Shown here one piece after another: positions 1 to 15,173 of a stretch of 20,596 nucleotides of DNA. Below the pieces are notes generated by a model. The model did not search any database. It was not told the DNA's origin and worked only from the letters and a program-made list of their open reading frames with translations. Both the position numbers and the translations under genes were made by a program. The first letter of the stretch is position 1, and each line of letters begins with the position of its first letter. The stretch comes from Candidatus Hermodarchaeota archaeon. Lineage in GTDB: Archaea > Asgardarchaeota > Thorarchaeia > Thorarchaeales > Thorarchaeaceae. The stretch covers positions 62,915 through 83,510 of the forward strand of contig JBHLLF010000010.1 of the NCBI GenBank assembly GCA_048885865.1, given 5' to 3'.

Positions 1-1806
1 GGCAAGTCATTGGAGGAGCAAATCAATTCCTTATTGCCTACCTGTTTGGAAAAGACGCTTAGTAAAAGATCTAAGAAAAAGGAGTATATGGCTGAAAAGA
101 GAGAATCGTTAGTTTATTTCCTTAGTCGACTTGCTATGGATTCCATGCCTAGCCTGAGAGGTTGGCCACTAGTTCCGACTGGTCTCAGCGGTCTGTCAGC
201 TGCGCTCTTTACTCTTCATTTCATTTCCCGAGCCGCTCGCACTCAAATTCCATGGTTAGTCTTGATTTGGAAATATGAGATTGAGAGGTATCGAACTGAG
301 CTCTTGCATGACCTCTTGGGGTCACTTACACACCAGATTACTGTGAGAGAAGCAAGAGCAAAGATTGAACAGATGAGTAAAGAAATCAGAAAGGATTTGG
401 GGGCTAGAGATACTATCGTGGTGTGGGCTCATGAATGGGAAGATCGACTCAAAGAGTTTAGTCCCAAAATGAAGCTTGTAGATTGCGAAGTCACCGAGGA
501 AAAGAGCCAGAATACTCCTGAAGATGAATTGGAAGACGAGTCTGGTGATGAGATCTCAGACCTGAGGAGGAAATTGAGAGAAGAAATCGAACTCAGGATT
601 CCAAGAAGCGGAGCTGCTCAGACACCCCAGACACCATTGCCTCGTAGTATTTGGGCTCAGCTAAGCATAGCATCAGACAGTCCACTTCCTTACATGTTCC
701 AAGAGCTTCTGAGCTCTCTCAGGGCTGATCTGAATGTAATGCGCTTTCGACAATTGGTGAACCTGTGTGAGTATCTGTCAGATATTGAAAAGCCAGGAAG
801 ACCAAGTAGAAGAGAAATCGCAGACACATCAGATGTTGGAGTCAGATCTGCCAAAGTGCAATCGATTGGATTGACTCTCACAGAGAGATATATTCCTTCA
901 TGGATGGATATGGGACTGAGAAGTCGATACATCTTCACAAGATTGCAGAAGTTAGCATTGGACTCACCTGGGTTGGCAGAACGAATATTCATTTCGGAAT
1001 CCGACATGTATCAGGTTGCTACAAGACACGTGGAACCAATAGCATCACATGGACCTCAAGGTAGTGACTTGCCAGATGATTCCTACCACCTAACGGTTGA
1101 CACAGATCTGGTTACAATGCGCATGGATCTGTTTGACAACGAGCTTGGAGAATGGAGAGAATGGGTGAAGGAATCCTCCACTCAGGATAATGATGTAGCA
1201 AAACCATCTGGAAAAGATGTCATATCAAGTCGAGAAGCCAAGAAGACCAAGCAATGGCTATTCAGAAAGACTTCATCAAGTGTCAAAGAATATATGATGC
1301 CTACTCAGCGAGAGATAGACCTTCTCAGTTTGATAGGAAGTGTCACCGCTAATGCAAAGGGGATGAGGTGGCTTCTCAAATCCGTCAAGTTTCCATCGAG
1401 GACAGCCGAACATCTCCTCTCGAAACTACTTAGCACCGAACGACTTAGACTCCTTTATCATCCAACTCTTAACTATGCAGGCCTTCCGGAGGGTCTTCTT
1501 GTTGCGGCTGAATTCAAGGCTGTGAAGCAACTCAATAGATTCATTGAACGGCTAGCCGCCTTCTTTCCATTCGTGCATAGTCAATTCAGCACAACTGAGA
1601 AGAGCGTTGTTTCGCGAGTGCGAGTCCCCAGATTCTCAAATGCTGGAGTTTTCATTAAAGAAGAACTGCAGGACGAGGGAGCGCTAAGAGCCATTGGCAC
1701 AATCACACATAATCGAACCTACCACATGTCAGTTCTGCACAGGCTCTATCAGTCAAAGAGCAAACCTTGGAGAGATCCGTGGGTTCACTCAGAGCCATTG
1801 CTCTAG
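1..1806 (+). CDS. Large hypothetical protein, probably 5'-truncated, with two Lrp/AsnC-like HTH modules in its C-terminal half (putative regulator)
   Basis: Frame 1 is open from base 1 (GGC AAG TCA TTG...), so the true start may lie upstream. HTH-like PSRREIADTSDVGVRSA is followed by YIPSWMDMGLRSRYIF. A second unit PTQREIDLLSLIG...FPSRTAEHLLSKLL...LLYHPTLNYAGLPEGLLV follows the Lrp/AsnC HTH-linker-RAM pattern. Overlaps the convergent FEN1-like gene by 18 nt. Confidence 0.6.
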   Translation, partial: GKSLEEQINSLLPTCLEKTLSKRSKKKEYMAEKRESLVYFLSRLAMDSMPSLRGWPLVPTGLSGLSAALFTLHFISRAARTQIPWLVLIWKYEIERYRTELLHDLLGSLTHQITVREARAKIEQMSKEIRKDLGARDTIVVWAHEWEDRLKEFSPKMKLVDCEVTEEKSQNTPEDELEDESGDEISDLRRKLREEIELRIPRSGAAQTPQTPLPRSIWAQLSIASDSPLPYMFQELLSSLRADLNVMRFRQLVNLCEYLSDIEKPGRPSRREIADTSDVGVRSAKVQSIGLTLTERYIPSWMDMGLRSRYIFTRLQKLALDSPGLAERIFISESDMYQVATRHVEPIASHGPQGSDLPDDSYHLTVDTDLVTMRMDLFDNELGEWREWVKESSTQDNDVAKPSGKDVISSREAKKTKQWLFRKTSSSVKEYMMPTQREIDLLSLIGSVTANAKGMRWLLKSVKFPSRTAEHLLSKLLSTERLRLLYHPTLNYAGLPEGLLVAAEFKAVKQLNRFIERLAAFFPFVHSQFSTTEKSVVSRVRVPRFSNAGVFIKEELQDEGALRAIGTITHNRTYHMSVLHRLYQSKSKPWRDPWVHSEPLL

Positions 1807-2781
1807 AGTCTCTTGATGTGTACCGAATTTTCTCCATAATCCAACGAACTGACGTGTAATCTCTTCTGCACGATCTTCCGCCATAAACATAGTCAGCATC
1901 CCCGTAAGCTTCGAAACTAGTGGGGGATTTAGATCGAGGAAAAGTCCATTTGTAGAAATGTAGCTAGCCTCATCGAATGCCTCCCTACCATCCATAAACT
2001 CCCTACGTTCAATTGGGTTATACCCTCGTGCCTTGAGCAGTGCTTCCAGCTCTTCATGTCGCTGAAGGAGAATTATCCCCTTTCTTGGACCGATGCCTTT
2101 CACTCCTTGCCTGTGAAAATCGCATCCACATACTATAGCGAGGTCTCTCAGTTGCTCAAGATCAAGTCCAGTTGTGCTTTCCAAATCAGCAAGTGTGGCC
2201 CTGTTTATCAGTCCTTTTGACAGCTGCAATTGCTTTGTCACATGTGGACTCCCAAATAGAAGAGCATCTGAATCATTTGAAACGACTGTATTAACTAACC
2301 CGTCCCTGCATAGCACGGCAGAAAACATCTCAGCCTCTGATGGCGCTGAGATTGCAGGCACACCTAGAACGCGTGCGAGTTCGCGTGTGTGTTCGATAGC
2401 AAAGAACATTCTGAGAGACGGACTCTTCCGCAGTGGACTGGCTATCTCCTCATCGTACGGATCCCGAGTTTCTTTGAATTGTCTGTAGAAGGATTGTGCA
2501 GTGAGAATGAGTTCAGGATTTGGAGACCTCTTCGTACGCTCTGGCGGACCATCAAAAATGAGGACTGGGAGTAATGCGTTCTTCAGACACATTCTTACTA
2601 AGCTCAGAGTCATTCCAGCGTGATAAAGGGGAATTCTGCCGCTATCTCGTTTTGATGAAGGAATGACACTCACACGACGTGTCAGATAATTGGGCATGTC
2701 TATCGCGATATTGCCGGGTGTCACCTCATTCACATCGACCCATGCCCACGGGACCAGATTGTTCCAACCTGTCACACCCAT
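1789..2781 (-). CDS. FEN1/XPG-family structure-specific 5' nuclease (divergent FEN1 paralog) with C-terminal PIP box
   Basis: Family-typical N-terminus MGVTGW (ATG 2781, GGTGA SD upstream). Acidic active-site motifs IAID, IFDG, SEAE, SNDSD, GCDF. H2TH motif GVKGIGPRKG. C-terminal QETLEQWL. Confidence 0.9.
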   Translation of the reverse strand: MGVTGWNNLVPWAWVDVNEVTPGNIAIDMPNYLTRRVSVIPSSKRDSGRIPLYHAGMTLSLVRMCLKNALLPVLIFDGPPERTKRSPNPELILTAQSFYRQFKETRDPYDEEIASPLRKSPSLRMFFAIEHTRELARVLGVPAISAPSEAEMFSAVLCRDGLVNTVVSNDSDALLFGSPHVTKQLQLSKGLINRATLADLESTTGLDLEQLRDLAIVCGCDFHRQGVKGIGPRKGIILLQRHEELEALLKARGYNPIERREFMDGREAFDEASYISTNGLFLDLNPPLVSKLTGMLTMFMAEDRAEEITRQFVGLWRKFGTHQETLEQWL

Positions 2782-2792
2782 AAGAATCACCA

Positions 2793-3518
2793 CTATCTGA
2801 AGGTACGCAGGCCCTTCTTTCCTTCCACTAGAATCAATGCCTGTGATTCAGAACCTATTGTGCTGCGCTCGACCAACACACGAATCAGATTCTTCCCAAC
2901 GTCCAGTCGATCAACTCTTACCACAGAGTCAACAGCATGAGCAAGAACATTTCCACCAATGGGTATAGGTCGACCCGAATTCCAGCTTCTAGAAGAGTGA
3001 TCTGTCATTAAAAGATGAGTTCCAATCTCATTCACTAGTTCCCTTAAGACCTCAAGACAATGAAAGAGCTCTCTTTGCCTCCCTGAACTTCCTGGAGCTC
3101 CAGAAAGATTGAGAACTCCTGTTAGACTGTCCAGCACTATTACAGATACAGAACTCAAGTTTGGAATGCTTCTACTGAGATCCTCCAGGTCTGAAAGACT
3201 CAATACATTCCCGACAATTACACGGCCCAGTATCTTTGACACCTTTTTCTTTGAATTGCACATTGCTCGAGCTAGAGTGGGACTGTAATTCGAGCCCGAG
3301 TCAATATAGACCGCAAATCCCTCATCTAGTTCAGCTGCGGCAATTGCTATGGCGTGGGCGAGAGTCGTAAGGGGAGATCGCTCAGGGCCATGAAGAAGAC
3401 TTAGTTGTTCGGGTGCGAGAATGGTTCCTAGCAAGTCGTCAAGTTGCTTCGGGGCAAGCGATATTGCGGATTGTGAATTGATATCTAGTGAATCAAGTGG
3501 AGTTCGCAAAGGTGTCAT
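2793..3518 (-). CDS. RecA/RadA-fold paralog with degenerate Walker A (probably ATPase-dead)
   Basis: LHGPERSPLTT at the P-loop position (no GK), VYIDSG, Walker B IVLDSLTG, RadA-type PIGGNVLAHAVD. Start ATG 3518 (or TTG 3509) after AGGAGG; the start is uncertain. Confidence 0.8.
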   Translation of the reverse strand: MTPLRTPLDSLDINSQSAISLAPKQLDDLLGTILAPEQLSLLHGPERSPLTTLAHAIAIAAAELDEGFAVYIDSGSNYSPTLARAMCNSKKKVSKILGRVIVGNVLSLSDLEDLSRSIPNLSSVSVIVLDSLTGVLNLSGAPGSSGRQRELFHCLEVLRELVNEIGTHLLMTDHSSRSWNSGRPIPIGGNVLAHAVDSVVRVDRLDVGKNLIRVLVERSTIGSESQALILVEGKKGLRTFR

Positions 3519-4440
3519 TGGCCTCCTTAAGATTAGTATATCTGTGAAGCAATAGTGCATTGACAAGTTCTCTTTCAGGAACTCTTTGAGAGATTAGACC
3601 TGGTGCTGCTGATTCAGGATAGATGACTCTTGGACCGGTTCTACTAGGGAAAACAAACATGCGTGAAGGAGGATTCCGTATTAGGTGATTAACAGTATCC
3701 TGATCAGTAGCCAAACAATATTCTGCCATCGAAAGGCCATGTTTCTCATCAATAAGAGGGACCTTGAGTATTGCCTCCCGCAAGAGTGGTGACGCATCAT
3801 TCTTTATTGCAACGCTTGCTCTCAAGAGAGTATCTCGAATCTGATTCAAACTTGCCCTCTCAGACTTTATTTCAATGAAGAGGACGTCGCATTCATTGAA
3901 GTGAGTCAATGAAATTGGTAGAAGTGGTCGATCTCTCATCAGCATGATAACATTCTCTCGGCTTTCAGGCGGGAGTAGTGCAATATGATCTGAAACTTGC
4001 TTGCTTATCGAAAGCTCAGGGGTTCCTGGGTTTCGGCTCAGCCAAGATATTGTCGAGTCTGGGGACAAAGTTGCCATCCATTCTTTCAGGTTGCTTGAAT
4101 CATACATTACTGAACATACAATAATCGTAAGTGCAGCACCCAAGAGGGATGGAACCATCCCATAGGGCAATAGTCCAACGAACGCTACCACTGCAAGATA
4201 TCCTGAGGCTGCATAGGCGAGTATTCCTAAAATCGCTGATAGTGCATGTTTGGCCAATAGTCGTTTCAACTGAATCAACGCCGCTGTTGTGCCAATGGCA
4301 ATAATCAGTGGAATGATATTCCCATTTCTGAAGGAAATAACCACAAGTGCCACTGATGAGAGTAATTGGGCACCACCCGCCAAAGCCATTGCTCCTGCTA
4401 TCGCCAAACCGATAATCTTCAAGATTCCTCTTCCAAGCAA
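3493..4440 (-). CDS. Membrane protein of unknown function (about 4 N-terminal TM helices plus soluble C-terminal domain)
   Basis: Hydrophobic segments IIGLAIAGAMALAGGAQLLSSVALVVISF, IIPLIIAIGTTAALI, ALSAILGILAYAASGYLAVVAFVGLL, MVPSLLGAALTIIVCSVM. Start reassigned to TTG 4440 after GAGGAGTGGT (alternative TTG 4422 overlapping the upstream TGA). Confidence 0.75.
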   Translation of the reverse strand: MLGRGILKIIGLAIAGAMALAGGAQLLSSVALVVISFRNGNIIPLIIAIGTTAALIQLKRLLAKHALSAILGILAYAASGYLAVVAFVGLLPYGMVPSLLGAALTIIVCSVMYDSSNLKEWMATLSPDSTISWLSRNPGTPELSISKQVSDHIALLPPESRENVIMLMRDRPLLPISLTHFNECDVLFIEIKSERASLNQIRDTLLRASVAIKNDASPLLREAILKVPLIDEKHGLSMAEYCLATDQDTVNHLIRNPPSRMFVFPSRTGPRVIYPESAAPGLISQRVPERELVNALLLHRYTNLKEANDTFANST

Positions 4441-5105
4441 TTCGTGACCACTCCTCGGCGATATGAAAGAGAGAGATGGCAAGCTCCGTCTTTTAGGACC
4501 TTGAGCTGCGCGATTTTGCGACCATAGCCATTCTCCACAATTGACACAGACGACACTTTGCTGGAAAAATCTCTGCAAACCTTGACAGTGATATCTGCCC
4601 ATTTTGCTATTTCATTAGAAAACACTGGATGATTGCCAATCTCAGGAAGAAATCTCATTTCACTTACAACAATGACATCTATGCCTCTTTCCCAGCATAA
4701 TGCTCCTAGTATGGGCAGCGCCTCTTCAATTAGCGCCTGCCCCCAAAGGATGGGATCAGTTCTTGACATGTCAAGCACCCTTGTAATAGGGTCAATGACA
4801 ATTAGAGAGGTGTCTGGTGCTATCGTCTTGGGCAAGCTTAACATAGCATCCAGTGTCTGCTTGTGACCTTTTGTCATCATAACAGACACATTAGTCTCTA
4901 GTCCCCTGAGATGCTTGACTGTTGCCTTCAGATGAGGTATGAACCGTTTCTTTGAGTCAGCATTTATCCACTCTACATGAGATGTACGAGATGCATCTGC
5001 TGCGATAGTCGCCGCTAGCAAAGTCTTGCCGGATCCTGCAGTTCCTGTGACATGGATAAAACCTCCGAGCTCCAATGATGCGCGAAGGCTGTATTCACTA
5101 CCCAG
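4419..5105 (-). CDS. RadB-like RecA-fold ATPase (RadA paralog lacking the N-terminal HhH domain)
   Basis: Intact Walker A TGTAGSGKT, WINADS in place of YIDTE, Walker B LIVIDPIT, late motif HPVFSNEIAKWAD. Start uncertain: CTG 5105 with GGAGG 9 nt upstream, TTG 5075, or ATG 5171. Confidence 0.8.
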   Translation of the reverse strand: MGSEYSLRASLELGGFIHVTGTAGSGKTLLAATIAADASRTSHVEWINADSKKRFIPHLKATVKHLRGLETNVSVMMTKGHKQTLDAMLSLPKTIAPDTSLIVIDPITRVLDMSRTDPILWGQALIEEALPILGALCWERGIDVIVVSEMRFLPEIGNHPVFSNEIAKWADITVKVCRDFSSKVSSVSIVENGYGRKIAQLKVLKDGACHLSLSYRRGVVTNCLEEES

Positions 5106-6708
5106 AAGAGCTTCCCTCCTCAAAGTCGAATAGAGAAGCCTGAACAATCTTTGATGGCTCTTTACCTGCATTGCTCGCAGAAACAATATCTGCCCCAGTA
5201 GGAATCTCTTCCTCGGGGGTGGATTCATCTATTGTTTGAGCTTCTATTATTGGGATTTCATCAACTTGAGATTTCAGTGATGAGCGTAACATGGCATCGA
5301 GGAGATTTTGGTCAAGCTCCTCCTCGTTTGATGAATCGTCTTCTTCTGGTTTTTCGGGCGTTGCTGTTCTTGATGGAAGTTCTGCATGGAACTCGTCAGG
5401 TTCAGCTAATGATTTATCGATGGCGTCAATCGTCCTCTTCATTGCTCGATTGTTAATCTTATCATCAATCATGTCCTTTATGTCAGGTCGAAGCGCTCCA
5501 GCATTGTAAAGTGCATAACTCAGGCTACCCACATGCTGTATCATATCCTCGAAACTGAGAGGCGATGTGATGTGAGCTGTGAGCGCAACATATGATAACG
5601 CAAGTGATTCCTTTTCCGCCTGAACTCCAAGAGCATCGAATAGGCCAAGGAACCGGGCTAGACCCTCATCTCCAGCTCCTGCGGAGTTCTTTTCCTGAAT
5701 CCGGAGTGGAGCCAGTCTTACACATTCATCCAAAATTATGCAAGCAGTTTCTATAGATTCTTGAAGAGAGCCAGCTTCGATAGTGTTTGCGAGACTTGCC
5801 ATAAGGGGTGATACAACAAAGCTGATGTCCCCTAGTAGGCGAAGATTATCCTCGTTTGACTCTATGGATTGCTGAATTCTCGTTGAATCCCCGAGGGTTG
5901 AAAGCACTGCATCTTCTTCTCGTATTGCATTCTCAAATTCCTTCAAATTACTATTGGAACTAGAAAGCAGCCATAGACCTGACAGTAGTGACACTACCAC
6001 TGTAAGTACTGACGGGAGAGTTGAGCCCTGTGTTGAAAGCTGGGTAATGACTGTAGAACCAACAGCAATTAGACTCGCAGTCAAAGCCAATACTCCAAGC
6101 CATCCTCTCTTTATGCTACGCTCCAAAGAAGACCACTTCTTTTGACGCACTGCATGTTTGAGTTCAGGCAAGACTGATCGTGCATCACTTCTTCGCACAA
6201 GAGCAAATTCCTCAATGGTCACTACTCTTCCTGAATCAGTTAACCAAGACAAATCCGTGGTGGGCTTCACATTCCTAGTCACAACATAGACTGTTCTAGT
6301 TGGATGAATCAGTGAAGCCTCCCTACCTTTGCTTCCTCGTAGCAGATGCAATGACACAGTATTAAGGGGAGTCTTCAGCTCCTTTCGTTCGAGATAATCT
6401 CCCAGTCCAACATCATACAAGACAGTTTCGAACTCTCGATTGACGCTCTCCAGGAGTGCGGCTCTCATGGCCAGTCCGCTTTTGCCGAAGCGAGCCGTCC
6501 TTAGGTCCAGAACATGAACAATTTCTATATGGACTCCTCGGGTTCCAGGGATAGACTCCAAACGAACCGCACTAACCAGCCCGTTTGGATATTCACAAGT
6601 AAAGTGGCCAGTGGCTTTCAGAGCGCCAATAAGATCACCACTTGGTTTCTCAATCTCATCCCCAACACCCACATCGGGTCGTGGACCTTCGCGGCTTGAT
6701 ATAGCCAT
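5098..6708 (-). CDS. Membrane protein (2 central TM helices, helical domain, acidic low-complexity linker, terminal PIP-like motif)
   Basis: ATG 6708 with GGAGGTG SD. TM hairpin GWLGVLALTASLIAVGSTVI / LPSVLTVVVSLLSGLWLLS. Acidic tail (PEKPEEDDSSNEEELD...) ending QASLFDFEEGSSSG. Confidence 0.8.
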   Translation of the reverse strand: MAISSREGPRPDVGVGDEIEKPSGDLIGALKATGHFTCEYPNGLVSAVRLESIPGTRGVHIEIVHVLDLRTARFGKSGLAMRAALLESVNREFETVLYDVGLGDYLERKELKTPLNTVSLHLLRGSKGREASLIHPTRTVYVVTRNVKPTTDLSWLTDSGRVVTIEEFALVRRSDARSVLPELKHAVRQKKWSSLERSIKRGWLGVLALTASLIAVGSTVITQLSTQGSTLPSVLTVVVSLLSGLWLLSSSNSNLKEFENAIREEDAVLSTLGDSTRIQQSIESNEDNLRLLGDISFVVSPLMASLANTIEAGSLQESIETACIILDECVRLAPLRIQEKNSAGAGDEGLARFLGLFDALGVQAEKESLALSYVALTAHITSPLSFEDMIQHVGSLSYALYNAGALRPDIKDMIDDKINNRAMKRTIDAIDKSLAEPDEFHAELPSRTATPEKPEEDDSSNEEELDQNLLDAMLRSSLKSQVDEIPIIEAQTIDESTPEEEIPTGADIVSASNAGKEPSKIVQASLFDFEEGSSSG

Positions 6709-6709
6709 T

Positions 6710-8917
6710 TCAATTTACACCTCCAAAATCTTGCTTCCTGCTTCCTGCAAGTCTTGTTTCTAATCCTTCCATCAACCTCTGCGAAACGGCCATTGGCTGT
6801 TTCAAACCCCCCACCTCTGCAACGGCTGCTATAGCGTAGAGCAACCAATGGGCGGCTTCCAGAAGCCCATAAGCATCGCCCAGATGAAATCCTGAACTAC
6901 GGGCCAACTCCTCAAGAGGAATGTCTGTCGTGGCTGCAGCAGCGACAAGATGTTCGAAAGATTCCTCAAGTGAAGTCCCCGATTCGATTGAAACCAGATG
7001 CTTCAAGAGCCATAGCAGTGCTGTGCTCTCCTCGACTCTTGGAAGTACCGCTAATAGCTCACGAATTGTTGGAATGCTGAGATAAAGCCGGTTTGCAATC
7101 CTACCCATTCGTGTAGGCTTCAGCTTTCCATCTATTCCGCCCTCGATTAAGCCCAGCCTGATGAGAAGCTCACTTGGACTTAGCTCGCTCAGCGCGACTG
7201 GAATTACATAATCTGCAAGGCTGCCTAGCTCTCTTGCTGCATACAGTCCTAAAGCAACCAAGTGAGAACATAGAACTCCATGTTGATCAATAGGTCTAGA
7301 GCATGAGCACTGCGGACCCTCCACTACACCATCAGCAGAAAGACGAGCCGAATACCTACAGGTATAGTGTCCTTCCTCCCATGCTGCTACGATGCCACCA
7401 ATAACACTATCATTTGTCTCCCTAAGGCTAATGCTCCCTAGAAGTCCCAGACGAGCTGGACGCACAGTGTCTGACAAGGCATGCTTCTCGATTGCAGATT
7501 CCGCGCTTATTTCACCCAATTGAATAACTCGCATAGGAGACCTCGTATCTCTTATTCCAGTAAATACCAGGTAGGAATCACCTAGAAAGCCGTCTGCGAT
7601 GTCTTCCAAGGTTGCTTCATCCAAAGCATCTAGTGCAACAAGCAGTTGCTCAGGCAGTGTCAACGATTCACCGAGTTTGCTAACCACACGATCATACTTT
7701 GGAAAGAGGATTTTTGTTGACGACTCATTATTCAATGACGAATCAAAGTATCTCTTTTCTACATCTTCAGCTTCTCCGGAGCTTCCAACTAGAATAATCC
7801 CAAACCCAGCCGTATCATAGCCAGGCCGACCAGCTCGACCTAGCATTTGATGAACAGAGTTGGCAGGAAGCATTTCTCGGTGATTTCCTGGAGACCGCAC
7901 ATTAGTAAGAACAACCGTCCTCGCAGGGAGATCCATTCCTGCCGCGAGTGTTGTAGTCGCGCAAATCACTCGAACTTTTCCGCGGAGAAATAGCTCCTCA
8001 ACAAGCCGCCGAGCCCGATTTCCTAGACCTGCATGATGATAAGCTGTGCCATCATGAAGAAGGGTTCTGAGTTCGGGGGGTATAGTGACATTCCAATTCT
8101 CAACTGACTCGAGCTCTGTGTCGAGATCTTCTTTTTCATTTCTAGTGAAATGTCGTCCAACATCCCCTGAAAGACGTATAGCCTGCGATTCAGCCTCGCG
8201 TCTTGTCCGATGAAAGACAATTGCCTGGCCATCACCTTGGACTGTCGTCATAACCAGTTGGCGAAGAACTCGCTCCTTGTGTTTTGAAGAGATAACACGA
8301 TAGACTAAGGGCACAGGACGTTCTTCTGATTCAACAAGAGTACAGCCGAGCCACTCAGCCAGCTCATCTGGTGAGCCAACTGTTGCTGAAAGCCCAATCA
8401 ACTGAAAACTGTCAACCATTCGCTTGAACCTGATTATGATAGATTCTAGGCGGGCACCCCTTCCAGAATCAGAAATTGTCTGAATCTCATCTATGACTAA
8501 GGAGCCGATAGAATTTAGCCAGGTAGTCTTTCTTCTCAGCAAAGAATCCGCCTTTTCGTATGTTGTCACAATGACATCATACTCCGAAAGACTCTCACCA
8601 TCATTCGAAAAATCCCCTGTACTCACACCAATTCGTAGGCCCAGAGGCTCATACCTATCTATCAGAATTCCAGACACCTGCACAGCGAGTGCCTTCAGAG
8701 GGACTAGATAGATTCCCTTCTTTCCAGTAAGTGCCGCTCTTAGGAGAGCCATCTCACCTACCAATGTCTTGCCAGAGCCAGTTGGACTGCAGACCAAAAT
8801 GCTTGCGCCATCCAGAAGGCCACGTTCGATCGAAGTTTTCTGAATCCCTCTCGGTTTAAGCCCCAGCTGATGGAGAAGCCTATGCACTTGTTCCTGAACA
8901 TCTGCTACAACCGTCAT
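6710..8917 (-). CDS. Ski2-like/Hel308-family SF2 helicase with inserted SWIM zinc finger, lacking the C-terminal HhH domain
   Basis: Q motif PRGIQ, I SPTGSGKT, Ia VPLKALA, Ib TTYEKAD, II IDEIQ, III LSAT, IV VFHRTRREAE, HHAGL, V ATTTLAAGMDLPA, VI QMLGRAGRPG. SWIM CSC-x10-CSH. Winged-helix-like LKPTRMGRIANRLYL. ATGA overlap with the upstream gene. Confidence 0.92.
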   Translation of the reverse strand: MTVVADVQEQVHRLLHQLGLKPRGIQKTSIERGLLDGASILVCSPTGSGKTLVGEMALLRAALTGKKGIYLVPLKALAVQVSGILIDRYEPLGLRIGVSTGDFSNDGESLSEYDVIVTTYEKADSLLRRKTTWLNSIGSLVIDEIQTISDSGRGARLESIIIRFKRMVDSFQLIGLSATVGSPDELAEWLGCTLVESEERPVPLVYRVISSKHKERVLRQLVMTTVQGDGQAIVFHRTRREAESQAIRLSGDVGRHFTRNEKEDLDTELESVENWNVTIPPELRTLLHDGTAYHHAGLGNRARRLVEELFLRGKVRVICATTTLAAGMDLPARTVVLTNVRSPGNHREMLPANSVHQMLGRAGRPGYDTAGFGIILVGSSGEAEDVEKRYFDSSLNNESSTKILFPKYDRVVSKLGESLTLPEQLLVALDALDEATLEDIADGFLGDSYLVFTGIRDTRSPMRVIQLGEISAESAIEKHALSDTVRPARLGLLGSISLRETNDSVIGGIVAAWEEGHYTCRYSARLSADGVVEGPQCSCSRPIDQHGVLCSHLVALGLYAARELGSLADYVIPVALSELSPSELLIRLGLIEGGIDGKLKPTRMGRIANRLYLSIPTIRELLAVLPRVEESTALLWLLKHLVSIESGTSLEESFEHLVAAAATTDIPLEELARSSGFHLGDAYGLLEAAHWLLYAIAAVAEVGGLKQPMAVSQRLMEGLETRLAGSRKQDFGGVN

Positions 8918-12150: not shown

Positions 12151-14106
12151 TCAACTTCCCTCCCTTAATGCTATGAACTGTGAAATAGCTGTCTTCAGCT
12201 CAGCAACATCCCCAAAGGGCCAGATATCAGCTACCATGTCATCGCCGAACACCCGGACATGCTTGAGAAAACGCTTGTCTAAAAGTACGACAATACCCCA
12301 GTCCTCAGGCGCTCTTCTTAGTCTTCCAAGAACTTGGGCAACCTGACGAATAGATGGGACTAGCGCTCCGTAATAGTAACCGGCTCCTTCTCCGAAGCGA
12401 GTGTCATAGAACTCCTGCAATGCCCTTTGGTAGCTCGTAGGAGGGGAGAATGGAATCCCGACTCCAATAATCAGATCTATCATACTAGAGCCGCCTTTCA
12501 CCAGGTCAATCCCCTCTGAGAATTTCCCTCCGAAAACACAGAAGATGGCGTGAGGGCCAATTTCCAAAGCTTCTGCGACAGTTTCAATGCGGTCACCTCT
12601 CTCTTCGATCAGTATTCCGCGATATCCAGAGTCAATGCCGTAGCTTAAGACCTCATGAAGGATCTTGTAACTTGGAAACGCAATGAGCGCACTCTTATTT
12701 GCGGGAACTGTTGTGAGTACTATTTTTATTCTCTCAGCTAGTGCACGCCAGAGATCAGGGCTTCTTGCCTGGTACTTTGTTGTAAGCTCCCTGTCAATGA
12801 GCACTAGTCTTGTCGACCGTGGATAAGGACTTGCCAAGTCCTCTGTTATTGCACCTCCAACTCCCAATAACCTTGCATAATGGTCTAGGGGTCTCAGGGT
12901 TCCAGACATCAGCAGCGCAGACTTTGCACCCCTGAGGACAGGCGCAGTTAGACCGGATGCGTTTAGTGGGCGAATCATTAGTGTAGCTTTCGAAGCGGTC
13001 AATGCTTCATCCCAAGACCGTTTCACGTTGAGTGTCACATGCCATCCTTCACTTCTGGTGGATAGGTTGGCAACAAAGAGGAACTCAACAAGCCTGTCGA
13101 GGGGAGTTTCCATTGAAACAGCCTCCTCGGGATCACCAATACTAGGGCTAGTAGTTTCATGCATGAGTCGCAAATCAGACTCCTTGATGAATCTAGGAGC
13201 CACATCCCATTTAGCGAGTGTACGCTCTGATCTCCTGTTCATCCCATCAAGATTGAGCATCATCGTTTCATGGAGAAAGTCCACTGCCTCTCCAATCCAG
13301 TCTATTCGGGTCTCCTTGACAATCTCTGCTTTGTGGTCTCTTAGCCATCGGAGGTCTTCACCATTCAGCCTGGCTGTTTCCGAGTCGAGCGCATGGTCTG
13401 ACAGATTGTGGGCTTCATCAACAAGTAGGTCCGCATCATGGAGTGAAATTCCCAATGATGTAAGAAGAGCCTCCCGTACCCGTGACCTAAACATATAGCT
13501 ATATGGTCCAATAATGACCTTGCTCTCTCTCGCACACCAGCGCATCACTTCATATGGGCACACACCTTCGGCACTGCAGAGGTCTTCCACTCTTTCACGT
13601 GTCACAACACCAGTGCTTAGCAATTCCTCAACGCGTTCTCGAACCCACTCTCTGATGACACTTCGACCATCGCTGGAGTTCTTTCGATAGACATTGTGAT
13701 AGTACGTACACTGCCCTGTCTTGATCATCGACGCGCAGGCTCGCATAAAGCCTGTAGAGGTGTCGGAGTCAATCTCGCTTCTAATTGGACACATATGGAT
13801 CCTCGACACCATCGTTGTGGCTGTAAGTTCAGGCATCATTGCCCTCAGAACGTCAAGTTCAATCTCGAACACTCTTGACTGACTGTGAGTTCTTGTCAGC
13901 ACGATCAACCTTGAGCTCGAATCACTACCTCTTGCAGCAAGATATCCTGAAAGGACAGCCACAGTTTTACCGACCCCGCAATCGGCAGAGAGCAATCCCA
14001 CTGTCTGTGACGAAAAGACCTCAGCAGCAAACCGCACAGCCTTGTCCTGATGCAGTCTAGGTGTATAAGGAAACCATGCGAGAGGGTCAGTGATAGCAGT
14101 ACTCAA
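12151..14106 (-). CDS. XPD/Rad3/DinG-family Fe-S cluster 5'-3' DNA helicase
   Basis: Q motif YTPRLHQ, I ADCGVGKT, Ia LTRTHSQ. Four Fe-S cysteines (SRIHMCP, RACA, GQCTYY, GVCPYE). II LVDEAHNL, III MSGTL, AFPSY, GGKFSEGIDL, VGIPF, VI QVLGRLRRAPEDWG...LLDKRF. TTG start with GGAGG, TTGA overlap. Confidence 0.95.
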   Translation of the reverse strand: MSTAITDPLAWFPYTPRLHQDKAVRFAAEVFSSQTVGLLSADCGVGKTVAVLSGYLAARGSDSSSRLIVLTRTHSQSRVFEIELDVLRAMMPELTATTMVSRIHMCPIRSEIDSDTSTGFMRACASMIKTGQCTYYHNVYRKNSSDGRSVIREWVRERVEELLSTGVVTRERVEDLCSAEGVCPYEVMRWCARESKVIIGPYSYMFRSRVREALLTSLGISLHDADLLVDEAHNLSDHALDSETARLNGEDLRWLRDHKAEIVKETRIDWIGEAVDFLHETMMLNLDGMNRRSERTLAKWDVAPRFIKESDLRLMHETTSPSIGDPEEAVSMETPLDRLVEFLFVANLSTRSEGWHVTLNVKRSWDEALTASKATLMIRPLNASGLTAPVLRGAKSALLMSGTLRPLDHYARLLGVGGAITEDLASPYPRSTRLVLIDRELTTKYQARSPDLWRALAERIKIVLTTVPANKSALIAFPSYKILHEVLSYGIDSGYRGILIEERGDRIETVAEALEIGPHAIFCVFGGKFSEGIDLVKGGSSMIDLIIGVGIPFSPPTSYQRALQEFYDTRFGEGAGYYYGALVPSIRQVAQVLGRLRRAPEDWGIVVLLDKRFLKHVRVFGDDMVADIWPFGDVAELKTAISQFIALREGS

Positions 14107-14729: not shown

Positions 14730-15173
14730 CTACCACGCCTCCATTGGAATGGTGACTAGCACACCGTTCTTGATTACCTCGCCCTCTGAAACGAGGGAGT
14801 CAAGGAAGGTCATTGCACGAGAGATATCGATGCCTGCATCGCTGCATTCTCTCATGACATCTTCAATCGAAACTGGTCGCCCTCTGTTGAGGTCAACTAG
14901 CGCTTCGACGATATAATAGACACGCCTCTTAATGCCCAAGCCCCTCCCTCCGCCCCGAGGTTTGGCATTCTGGCGCGATTCTAGCACAAGCTCACGGACA
15001 CTCGCTTGGGCTTCTTGAATTGTAACTGCATAGATTGTTCCAGGTGCATGAAGAATCAGACTCCTGCATAGGCTGCATCTTGACTCCTCTTGCTCATTCT
15101 CGACAGCTGTGTATCCTATGTTGGTGCAACTGGGGCACTGGTAAACTCTGAACATCCCTCGTTCTGAGGTCAC
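14730..15173 (-). CDS. Zn-ribbon (CxxC...CxxC) plus C-terminal winged-helix protein (DUF1922/DUF5817-like architecture)
   Basis: YQCPSC...SRCSLC, a Gly/basic linker (KPRGGGRGLGIKRR), and wHTH-like IVEALVDLNRGRPVSIEDVMRECSDAGIDISRAMTFLDSLVSEGEV. GTGA overlap with the radA stop. The family name is from recall only. Confidence 0.78.
   Translation of the reverse strand: MTSERGMFRVYQCPSCTNIGYTAVENEQEESRCSLCRSLILHAPGTIYAVTIQEAQASVRELVLESRQNAKPRGGGRGLGIKRRVYYIVEALVDLNRGRPVSIEDVMRECSDAGIDISRAMTFLDSLVSEGEVIKNGVLVTIPMEAW

What the first reader, a model, noticed from the sequence alone, without database searches (positions are those of the whole stretch)
5098..5420. PIP-box-like motif at the end of a long acidic tether on a membrane protein
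Seen: a 2-TM protein ends in about 100 aa of acidic low-complexity sequence and then QASLFDF (5122-5142). Known: archaeal PCNA partners carry C-terminal Qxx(L/I)xx(F/W)-type motifs after flexible linkers. The FEN1 paralog in the same operon also ends in a PIP box. Inference: a membrane anchor for the sliding clamp, tethering repair or replication to the membrane. The motif lacks the second aromatic residue and may be chance.
Basis: partly seen in the sequence, partly recalled or inferred. Interest (0 to 1): 0.72.

Follow-up and report, generated by a model that had tools for sequence, protein, structure and literature searches.

The report
Degenerate clamp-docking motif on membrane-protein tail
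A membrane-anchored protein found only in Thorarchaeota, encoded in a DNA-recombination operon, ends in a floppy acidic cytoplasmic tail carrying a short conserved peptide that resembles, but does not fully match, the signal enzymes use to grip the DNA sliding clamp PCNA; it may hold the clamp at the membrane, but binding is untested.

Summary
The 536-aa ORF (5098-6708, minus strand) has an N-terminal cytoplasmic domain, a two-helix membrane hairpin and a helical domain. It ends in a 100-residue disordered tail (26 D/E against 6 K/R) with QASLFDF at 5122-5142, seven residues before the stop.

The motif is not chance. Q, S3, L4, a hydrophobic residue at 5 and an acid at 6 are kept in about 75-85% of 113 orthologs while the linkers diverge. 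Synonymous codon changes occur inside it, and it lies outside the real coding part of the next gene.

It is not a canonical PIP box:
- No ortholog has the aromatic pair.
- F7 is lost in the nearest sister species.
- Most orthologs read QLSL-phi-[DE][DE]-phi-E-phi after a lysine run.
- 15 of 34 species lack the motif.

By contrast, the operon's FEN1 paralog keeps Qx[ST]LEQW-phi at its very end in nearly all of 27 complete loci. In this genome, however, single-aromatic PIPs are normal (NreA QTLITDFTE, Hel308 QTLLEDFE; the Hel308 form or a close variant is kept in about 27 of 30 relatives), and the window's motif fits that class.

Verdict: a real short linear motif, most likely a weak PIP-type PCNA dock (about 0.4). 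Another partner is nearly as likely. The scan reached the same reading before on another genome (e1-5637928).

The parts
5098..6708 (-). Target gene: 536-aa protein specific to Thorarchaeota, with no Pfam family
   Evidence: ORF. No Pfam match. At least 143 homologs, every named one labelled Thorarchaeota or Promethearchaeota. 36 genome loci, nearly all in the same gene order.
6142..6642 (-). N-terminal alpha/beta domain (residues 23-189), cytoplasmic, highly conserved
   Evidence: AF2 pLDDT about 90. Dense invariant columns. No signal peptide. No Foldseek match in the PDB.
6037..6102 (-). Transmembrane helix 1 (about residues 203-224)
   Evidence: Hydropathy peak of 1.98. AF2 helix H190-224. 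Preceded by KHAVRQKKWSSLERSIKRG, which holds 7 K/R, so that side is inside.
5956..6015 (-). Transmembrane helix 2 (about residues 232-251), returning the chain to the cytoplasm
   Evidence: Hydropathy peak of 1.93. AF2 helix H231-271. The loop between the helices is short and uncharged (STQGSTLPS).
5401..5895 (-). Helical cytoplasmic domain (residues 272-436)
   Evidence: AF2 helices at pLDDT about 90. Conserved LDECVR and other blocks.
5101..5400 (-). Disordered acidic tail (residues 437-536), net charge -20
   Evidence: pLDDT below 50. Composition. The linkers diverge while islands are kept.
5275..5322 (-). Conserved tail island 1: EELDQNLLDAMLRSSL. Family form is [DE]-L-x-D-x-[MI]-L-x-[AS]-S.
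   Evidence: A weak AF2 helix at 467-475. Partner unknown.
5176..5199 (-). Conserved tail island 2: TGADIVSA. Family form is T-G-A-D-[IV]-V-x-[GA].
   Evidence: Column counts D 86/112, V 90/112, G/A 83/112. Also present in deep lineages that lack the QxSL motif.
5122..5142 (-). PIP-like motif QASLFDF (residues 523-529)
   Evidence: Family columns: Q 94/110, S 77/106, L 87/106, hydrophobic at position 5 in 81/96, D/E at position 6 in 91/100, aromatic at position 7 in 5/94.
5113..5121 (-). Shine-Dalgarno GAGGAGGGA of the downstream RecA-paralog gene, encoded in codons E530-E531-G532
   Evidence: GAGGAG or GGAGG is conserved at this place in most of the 31 loci printed.
4419..5105 (-). Downstream RecA-fold paralog. 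Probable start is CTG 5105-5103, overlapping the target by 8 nt. The 269-aa ORF reaching 5228 is over-extended.
   Evidence: The Walker A motif starts 52-55 nt after the target stop in 23 of 33 loci (37-90 nt in the rest), and in most loci a [G/C]TG lies 5 or 8 nt before that stop. The upstream part of that frame is neither conserved nor open in most loci. The start codon is inferred.
1789..2793 (-). FEN1 paralog of the same operon, ending in the PIP box QETLEQWL (1792-1815)
   Evidence: Pfam XPG_I. The terminal motif Q-x-[ST]-L-E-x-[WF] plus a last residue is kept in nearly all of the 27 complete operon loci.

Best explanation
The protein is a membrane anchor: N-terminus inside, a two-helix hairpin, C-terminus inside. 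Both of its folded domains and its roughly 100-residue disordered acidic tail face the cytoplasm. The tail carries several short linear motifs. The last one, QASLFDF in this genome, is a degenerate member of the PIP class. It would dock, probably weakly and reversibly, in the hydrophobic pocket of the single PCNA of this organism. That would keep a sliding clamp near the membrane-anchored recombination machine encoded by the operon. There the FEN1 paralog, which has a canonical and almost invariant PIP box, could share the trimeric clamp. Shown here: the anatomy, the disorder, the inferred topology, conservation of the motif core, and its fit to this lineage's single-aromatic PIPs. Inferred: that PCNA is the partner, and the shared-clamp arrangement.
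For: (1) The motif matches Q.[ST]L.[DE][FW]. That pattern occurs 12 times in the proteome, 7 of them in the last 25 aa against 0.38 expected. The other six carriers include PolY and FEN1, two DUF72 proteins, an AsnC-type regulator and a small unknown protein. (2) Single-aromatic PIPs are maintained in this lineage. NreA ends QTLITDFTE*. Hel308 ends QTLLEDFEIEND*, also behind an acidic linker, and about 27 of 30 Thorarchaeota Hel308 proteins end in QTLL[ED]DF or a close variant. Archaeal NreA binds PCNA through its C-terminal PIP (PMC4929162). P. furiosus Hjm and Mre11 bind PCNA through non-canonical C-terminal PIP-like motifs; the Mre11 peptide is KKKRGTLDSWLGG with a Kd of about 4 uM (PMC6009593). 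(3) Q1, S3, L4 and an acid at position 6 are the positions shared with true PIPs, and they are kept in 73-91% of 113 orthologs. Synonymous codon changes occur at Q, S, L and F. (4) The tail is disordered and cytoplasmic. (5) The FEN1 paralog PIP is conserved in all 27 complete operons, so PCNA is expected at this system. (6) In most orthologs a lysine run precedes the motif. In human PCNA, positive flanks can compensate for weak motifs (PMC6881253).
Against: No ortholog has the aromatic pair at positions 7-8. Position 7 is aromatic in only 5 of 94 orthologs and is usually D or E. The hydrophobic residue sits at position 8 and is aliphatic in about half of cases. The nearest sister species have QASLFDS, QTSLFDQ or QASLLDS, and one has QSSQGDF. 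The motif is missing in 15 of 34 species, although the operon and the FEN1-paralog PIP persist there. It lies 7-30 residues from the end, whereas proven-type PIPs in this genome lie 0-5 residues from the end. Flanks in this genome are neutral to acidic and PCNA itself is acidic, pI 4.9. No binding or docking result was obtainable.
Confidence: 0.4

Rival explanations
1. The tail is a bipartite RecA-family binding module resembling a BRC repeat. The island D-[IV]-V-x-[AG] would mimic the FxxA polymerisation motif, and L-phi-[DE]-[DE] would mimic the LFDE module. It would hold the operon's RadA, or the RecA paralog encoded next to it with overlapping stop and start, at the membrane.
For: The most conserved part of the motif is L-phi-acid-acid, not the aromatic residue. 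A second island, T-G-A-D-[IV]-V-x-[GA], lies 17-21 residues upstream, by hand count on five orthologs listed. BRC4 has FHTA at 1524 and LFDE at 1545, 21 residues apart (PMC2800230). That island is older and more widespread than the QxSL motif. The operon holds three RecA-fold genes. The next gene is a RecA paralog whose start overlaps the target's stop and which has only about 19 residues before its P-loop, so it has no polymerisation motif of its own.
Against: The residues of the human RAD51 LFDE pocket, R247, R250 and L255, align to A, N and T in the operon RadA; only L204 aligns to a hydrophobic residue, F. PMC2800230 states that this pocket is a eukaryotic feature not found in archaeal RadA. 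The key phenylalanine of FxxA is I or V here. The conservation of Q1 and S3 is unexplained by this reading. No Pfam BRCA2-repeat match. In the window itself the fourth position is F, not an acid.
Confidence: 0.15
2. The motif is a docking site for a different partner: RPA or another ssDNA-binding protein, the SWIM-bearing Hel308-like helicase, the VirB4/HerA-like protein, or the protein's own folded domains. An acidic amphipathic peptide of this kind fits many such sites.
For: The family consensus K-rich, Q-L-S-L-phi-[DE]-[DE]-phi-E-phi is a generic acidic amphipathic peptide. It evolves faster than the true PIPs of FEN1p and Hel308 in the same genomes. It is confined to two clades of the family, as expected for a lineage-specific protein-protein contact.
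Against: No candidate partner co-varies with the motif: the gene order VirB4-like, Hel308-like, target, RecA paralog, 4TM, dead RecA, FEN1p is the same with and without it. AF2 with 98 sequences shows no docking of the tail onto the protein's own domains. The detailed match to the PIP prefix Q-x-S-L-x-[DE] would then be a coincidence.
Confidence: 0.3
3. There is no protein-level function. The resemblance is chance, or the conservation reflects nucleotide constraints from the overlapping or abutting downstream gene.
For: The generic QxxLxxF pattern is at chance frequency at C-termini. The motif abuts the ribosome-binding site of the next gene, and a 269-aa ORF overlaps it in the +1 frame. The conservation of the extreme C-terminus (EE[RS]GS...) is explained by that ribosome-binding site and the start codon. 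One close species has lost L4.
Against: The amino acids are kept through synonymous changes (TCT/TCC, CTA/CTG, TTC/TTT, CAG/CAA), while the +1-frame peptide changes freely. In most loci the +1 frame is closed by stops across the motif, which there lies further upstream of the target's stop. Q is present in 94 of 110 orthologs and L4 in 87 of 106.
Confidence: 0.1

Closest known systems
C-terminal PIP boxes of archaeal PCNA clients, in particular the single-aromatic forms of Thorarchaeota Hel308 (QTLL[ED]DF) and NreA (QTLITDF)
   Same: Q at position 1, S/T or L at 3, L at 4, an acid at 6 and F at 7. It sits at the end of a disordered, often acidic linker on a DNA-repair-associated protein. Position 8 is not aromatic.
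   Different: It is carried by a membrane protein. It is followed by 7 or more residues. F7 is not maintained among orthologs, whereas position 7 is F or Y in nearly all of the 30 Hel308 proteins and W or F in all 27 FEN1-paralog tails. Most orthologs have an extra residue before the hydrophobic position.
Non-canonical PIP-like motif of P. furiosus Mre11 (KKKRGTLDSWLGG) and Thermococcales Hjm (PMC6009593)
   Same: A degenerate PIP-like motif preceded by a lysine run, at the C-terminal end of a recombination protein. Binding to PCNA is shown for that case.
   Different: Mre11 lacks Q but keeps W-L at positions 7-8. The family here keeps Q but lacks the 7-8 pair. The window's own clade has lost the lysine run.
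BRC repeats of BRCA2 (FxxA and LFDE modules; PMC2800230)
   Same: Two short hydrophobic modules about 20 residues apart in a disordered region, the second being phi-phi-x-acid, in a recombination context with RecA-family partners.
   Different: No phenylalanine in module 1. The LFDE-pocket residues are absent from the operon RadA. There is no sequence-profile match, and BRC repeats are not known in archaea.

Membership tests
PIP box (QxxhxxAA; Warbrick definition as cited in PMC4929162) | Gln at position 1 | tested here: met
   Q523 in the window. Q in 94 of 110 aligned orthologs.
PIP box (QxxhxxAA; Warbrick definition as cited in PMC4929162) | Aliphatic L/I/M at position 4 | tested here: met
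   L526 in the window. L in 87 of 106 orthologs, V or I in 14. One close species has Q.
PIP box (QxxhxxAA; Warbrick definition as cited in PMC4929162) | Aromatic residue at position 7 | tested here: inconclusive
   Met in the window (F529) and its closest relatives. Across the family position 7 is aromatic in 5 of 94 and D/E in 69 of 94.
PIP box (QxxhxxAA; Warbrick definition as cited in PMC4929162) | Aromatic residue at position 8 | tested here: not met
   E530 in the window, a codon that is part of the next gene's ribosome-binding site. None of 113 orthologs has an aromatic pair. In the longer ortholog form position 8 is F or Y in 41 of 79.
PIP box (QxxhxxAA; Warbrick definition as cited in PMC4929162) | Lies in an accessible disordered segment on the cytoplasmic side | tested here: met
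   pLDDT below 50 for residues 512-536. Positive-inside rule: 7 K/R before TM1 and none in the loop. No signal peptide. The topology is inferred, not measured.
PIP box (QxxhxxAA; Warbrick definition as cited in PMC4929162) | Physical binding to the PCNA interdomain pocket | not testable with these tools
   No complex prediction or binding assay is available. The genome has one PCNA gene, on C12 near 73321.
BRC repeat (BRCA2-type RAD51-binding module) | FxxA module | tested here: not met
   The island is D-[IV]-V-x-[GA] with no phenylalanine.
BRC repeat (BRCA2-type RAD51-binding module) | LFDE module (phi-phi-x-acid) at fixed spacing | tested here: inconclusive
   L-phi-[DE]-[DE] in most orthologs; L-F-D-F in the window. 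Spacing from the upstream island is 17-21 residues by hand count on five orthologs, against 21 in BRC4.
BRC repeat (BRCA2-type RAD51-binding module) | Partner recombinase has the LFDE pocket (human L204, R247, R250, L255) | tested here: not met
   The operon RadA aligns F, A, N and T at these positions. The RecA paralogs were not examined.

The most novel reading that the evidence does not exclude
The tail is a multi-motif scaffold that gathers both the sliding clamp, through the PIP-like end, and RecA-family recombinases, through a BRC-like phi-x-x-[AG] ... L-phi-acid-acid module, at the membrane. That would make it an Asgard-archaeal, membrane-anchored functional analogue of a eukaryotic recombination mediator such as BRCA2.
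Probability: 0.07. Interest if true: 0.9.

Novelty: new variant of a known kind. Interest (0 to 1): 0.5.

Why it matters
My literature searches found no membrane-anchored PCNA partner described in archaea. If the tail binds PCNA, it would show that a close archaeal relative of eukaryotes positions the sliding clamp at the cell membrane next to a private set of recombination enzymes. That would fit DNA being processed as it enters or leaves the cell. It would also add a well-populated natural series of degenerate PIP variants: aromatic at position 7 only, hydrophobic at position 8 only, no aromatic, and with or without a lysine flank. Such a series is useful for understanding how much of the motif a clamp needs. 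If the partner is instead a RecA-family protein, the tail would be the first BRC-like recombinase tether outside eukaryotes. Either way the claim can be tested directly with peptides and recombinant proteins.

Tried and rejected
- Foldseek of the AF2 model against the PDB gave no match at E <= 0.001. Both VIA-align libraries were unavailable. The ESM Atlas gave no usable hit. The folded domains therefore remain unassigned.
- I asked whether an unannotated operon protein, for example the 250-aa one, could be a private clamp. Pfam found nothing and the genome has one ordinary PCNA. I did not pursue this with a fold.
[quoted passage not shown] Orthologs show a conserved [IV]L[ED]Y[FL]xKxG helix-like block with variable F, so I rejected it as a PIP.
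- I tested the BRC-like reading against the literature definition and against the RadA pocket residues. It was weakened.
- A regular expression for FEN1 failed and was replaced by tblastn.
- The tree labelled L033 as 'plus1'. That is a false regular-expression hit; its tail has no motif.
- Literature searches found no paper on this operon or protein.
- Complex prediction with PCNA was not possible, because joined sequences may not be submitted.
Full report
**What is there**

The window lies in a Thorarchaeota (Asgard) assembly, G000:C10:62915-83510. A long minus-strand operon runs from about 17453 to 1789. Pfam names five of its genes:
- a second RadA (15170-16237)
- an XPD-type helicase (12151-14106)
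- a Hel308/Ski2-like helicase (6710-8917)
- a RecA-fold paralog with a degenerate P-loop (2793-3566; Pfam Rad51)
- a FEN1 paralog (1789-2793)

The 269-aa ORF at 4419-5228 gives only weak AAA-type hits. I call it a RecA paralog from its GxxGxGKT P-loop and its context.

The target is the 536-aa ORF 5098-6708. It starts one base after the helicase stop and ends ...KIVQASLFDFEEGSSSG*.

**Architecture and topology**

AlphaFold2 with a 98-sequence alignment gives a confident model for residues 22-440 (pLDDT about 90). It shows an alpha/beta N-terminal domain, a helical hairpin (H190-224 and H231-271) and a helical bundle. Residues 440-536 are modelled at pLDDT below 50.

Hydropathy peaks (19-residue window, 1.9-2.0) fall at about residues 203-224 and 232-251. 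The segment before the first helix, KHAVRQKKWSSLERSIKRG, has 7 K/R. The loop between the helices is short and uncharged, and there is no signal peptide. By the positive-inside rule both soluble domains and the tail face the cytoplasm. This is an inference, not a measurement.

The last 100 residues hold 26 D/E and 6 K/R. Foldseek found no PDB relative, and Pfam and the ESM Atlas found nothing.

**Is the motif more than chance?**

By the generic pattern it is not. Q..[LIMV]..[FWY] occurs in the last 25 residues of 42 of 2934 ORFs in this genome, against 49 expected from its internal density.

Two other things do exceed chance. The first is the pattern of this genome's recognisable PCNA clients:

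| Protein | C-terminal end |
|---|---|
| PolY | QSTLSEFF* |
| FEN1 | QSSLTDFF* |
| PolD DP2 | QTDLTDFFE* |
| FEN1 paralog | QETLEQWL* |
| NreA | QTLITDFTE* |
| Hel308 | QTLLEDFEIEND* |

The narrower pattern Q.[ST]L.[DE][FW] occurs only 12 times in about 1.03 million residues. Seven of those are within the last 25 residues against 0.38 expected, and the target is one of the seven. I defined this pattern after seeing the data, so it is supportive rather than a clean test.

The second is conservation. The family has at least 143 members, and every member that carries a source name is labelled Thorarchaeota or Promethearchaeota. In 113 full-length cluster representatives the tail linkers are unalignable, but three islands stand out:

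| Position in the last island | Residues and counts |
|---|---|
| 1 | Q 94/110 |
| 2 | mostly L |
| 3 | S 77/106 |
| 4 | L 87/106 |
| 5 | hydrophobic 81/96 |
| 6 | D/E 91/100 |

**Is the conservation at the protein level?**

A 269-aa ORF (4419-5228) overlaps the motif in the +1 frame, so this had to be checked.

In 23 of 33 ortholog loci the downstream RecA paralog's Walker A motif starts 52-55 nt after the target's stop (37-90 nt in the others). A GAGGAG or GGAGG element lies within the target's last 8 codons, and in most loci a GTG or CTG lies 5 or 8 nt before the target's stop. In the window the CTG is at 5105-5103.

Upstream of that, the +1 frame is closed by stops in most loci. Its peptide is not conserved even among close relatives. 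Within the motif the close relatives differ by synonymous changes (CAG/CAA, TCT/TCC, CTA/CTG, TTC/TTT). The motif is therefore under protein-level purifying selection.

The highly conserved extreme C-terminus, EE[RS]GSxG[VA], is confounded by the ribosome-binding site and start of the next gene. It should not be read as a peptide motif. In the window the ribosome-binding site GAGGAGGGA begins right after F529, so position 8 of the putative PIP is a ribosome-binding-site codon.

**Is it a PIP box?**

The definition QxxhxxAA (PMC4929162) is met at positions 1 and 4. It is met at position 7 in the window only, and not at position 8. Across 113 full-length orthologs:
- none has the aromatic pair
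- 61 read Q-L-S-L-phi-[DE]-[DE]-phi-[ED]-phi, with the hydrophobic residue at position 8 (24 aromatic, 36 aliphatic), usually after a lysine run
- 8 have an aromatic residue at position 7 only (QxSLFDF in the window's closest relatives, QL[AV]LDDFE in another clade)
- about 11 have no aromatic residue at all (QASLFDS, QTSLFDQ, QASLLDS); these are the sister species at 65-72% identity
- the remaining roughly 30 carry no credible motif (5 of the 13 hits classed as aromatic-at-7 and about 10 of the 21 Qxxh-only hits are unrelated sequence, and 18 have no Q-x-x-h at all)

One species at 78% identity has QSSQGDF.

A tree built from the folded part only shows the motif in two well-supported clades, of 5 and 14 species among 34. 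Their relationship is unresolved, and 15 species lack the motif (the 'plus1' label on L033 is a false hit).

The FEN1 paralog of the same operons ends in Q-x-[ST]-L-E-x-[WF] plus a last residue in nearly all of 27 complete loci, including those whose target lacks any motif. That shows what a PIP box under steady selection looks like in these genomes. The target's motif is clearly under looser or different constraints.

**What speaks for PCNA nonetheless**

About 27 of 30 Thorarchaeota Hel308 proteins end in an acidic linker plus QTLL[ED]DF or a close variant, followed by nothing or by 1-5 residues. Position 8 is a non-aromatic residue (mostly E, D or G) or absent, and never aromatic. NreA and two DUF72 proteins do the same.

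NreA is an established PIP-dependent PCNA partner (PMC4929162). P. furiosus Hjm needs its last 20 residues to bind PCNA. P. furiosus Mre11 binds PCNA with a Kd of about 4 uM through KKKRGTLDSWLGG, a lysine-flanked PIP-like motif without Q (PMC6009593).

Read one residue later, the common ortholog form L-S-L-L-D-D-F-E-L matches Hel308's T-L-L-E-D-F-E-I. Work on human PCNA shows that degenerate motifs can be rescued by positive flanks and that motif length varies. The same work warns that acidic flanks disfavour binding (PMC6881253). The PCNA here is acidic, pI 4.9, and the window's flanks are neutral to acidic.

**Rival partner**

The best-conserved core, L-phi-acid-acid, together with the older island T-G-A-D-[IV]-V-x-[GA], recalls the FxxA and LFDE modules of BRC repeats. 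By my hand count on five orthologs listed, the island lies 17-21 residues upstream. In BRC4, F1524 and L1545 are 21 residues apart (PMC2800230). The gene's stop also overlaps the start of a RecA paralog that has no N-terminal polymerisation motif.

Several things count against this. The operon RadA has A, N and T where human RAD51 has R247, R250 and L255 of the LFDE pocket. The paper states that this pocket is not an archaeal feature. The key phenylalanine is absent, and Q1 and S3 are unexplained. I keep this reading at about 0.15.

A different, unidentified partner is about 0.3. No operon gene co-varies with the motif, and AF2 shows no intramolecular docking.

**Verdict**

It is PIP-like, and in this genome it is indistinguishable from the lineage's weak single-aromatic PIPs. 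It is not a canonical PIP and is not conserved as one.

PCNA docking is the single most likely mechanism, at about 0.4, and it is untested. The scan had reached the same reading on another Thorarchaeota genome (e1-5637928). The operon context agrees with earlier notes (e1-5646429, e1-5646438).

Noticed in passing
G000:C12:36168-38420 (L050) and loci L083-L112: The housekeeping Hel308 of Thorarchaeota ends in an acidic linker plus a single-aromatic PIP-like motif. About 27 of 30 orthologs carry Q-T-L-L-[ED]-D-F or a close variant, followed by 0-5 residues. Position 8 is never aromatic.
   Followed up: yes
G000:C6:10666-11505 and G000:C116:1125-1946 (L046, L047): Two DUF72 (PF01904) paralogs end exactly in QTTLDEF* and QTSLEDF*. 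This suggests that this uncharacterised family is a PCNA client in this lineage.
   Followed up: partly
window 5103-5121 and 4419-5228: The downstream RecA paralog's ORF is over-extended. Most loci keep a ribosome-binding site (GAGGAG or GGAGG) inside the target's last codons, and a GTG or CTG 5 or 8 nt before the target's stop. This points to an 8-nt overlap and, in this clade, a CTG start (5105-5103).
   Followed up: partly
window 5176-5199 and 5275-5322: The tail holds two further conserved islands, TGADIVSA and EELDQNLLDAMLRSSL, with no known partner. The first is present even in deep lineages that lack the PIP-like motif.
   Followed up: partly
window 15170-15300 (C-terminus of the operon RadA); loci L053-L082: The operon's second RadA has a conserved C-terminal extension, GWGG[FM]Y.DSK.KK..EP.[IV]L[ED]Y[FL].K.G, followed by an acidic tail. 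I did not check whether the housekeeping RadA (G000:C2:119191) has it. It is not a PIP box.
   Followed up: partly
G000:C24:18127-18600 (L048); G000:C15:8164-9141 (L003); G000:C38:29-1006 (L004): Further proteins have PIP-type ends: a 157-aa protein with no Pfam family (QSSLDEFSTDITQD*), an AsnC/Lrp-type regulator (QISLEEWFVPVRS*) and a DUF2797 protein (QTGLLDFL*).
   Followed up: no
locus L012, 7560-7605: In one species at 78% identity the motif reads QSSQGDF: L4 is replaced by Q and F5 by G, through three base changes. This is either a lineage-specific loss or an assembly error.
   Followed up: no
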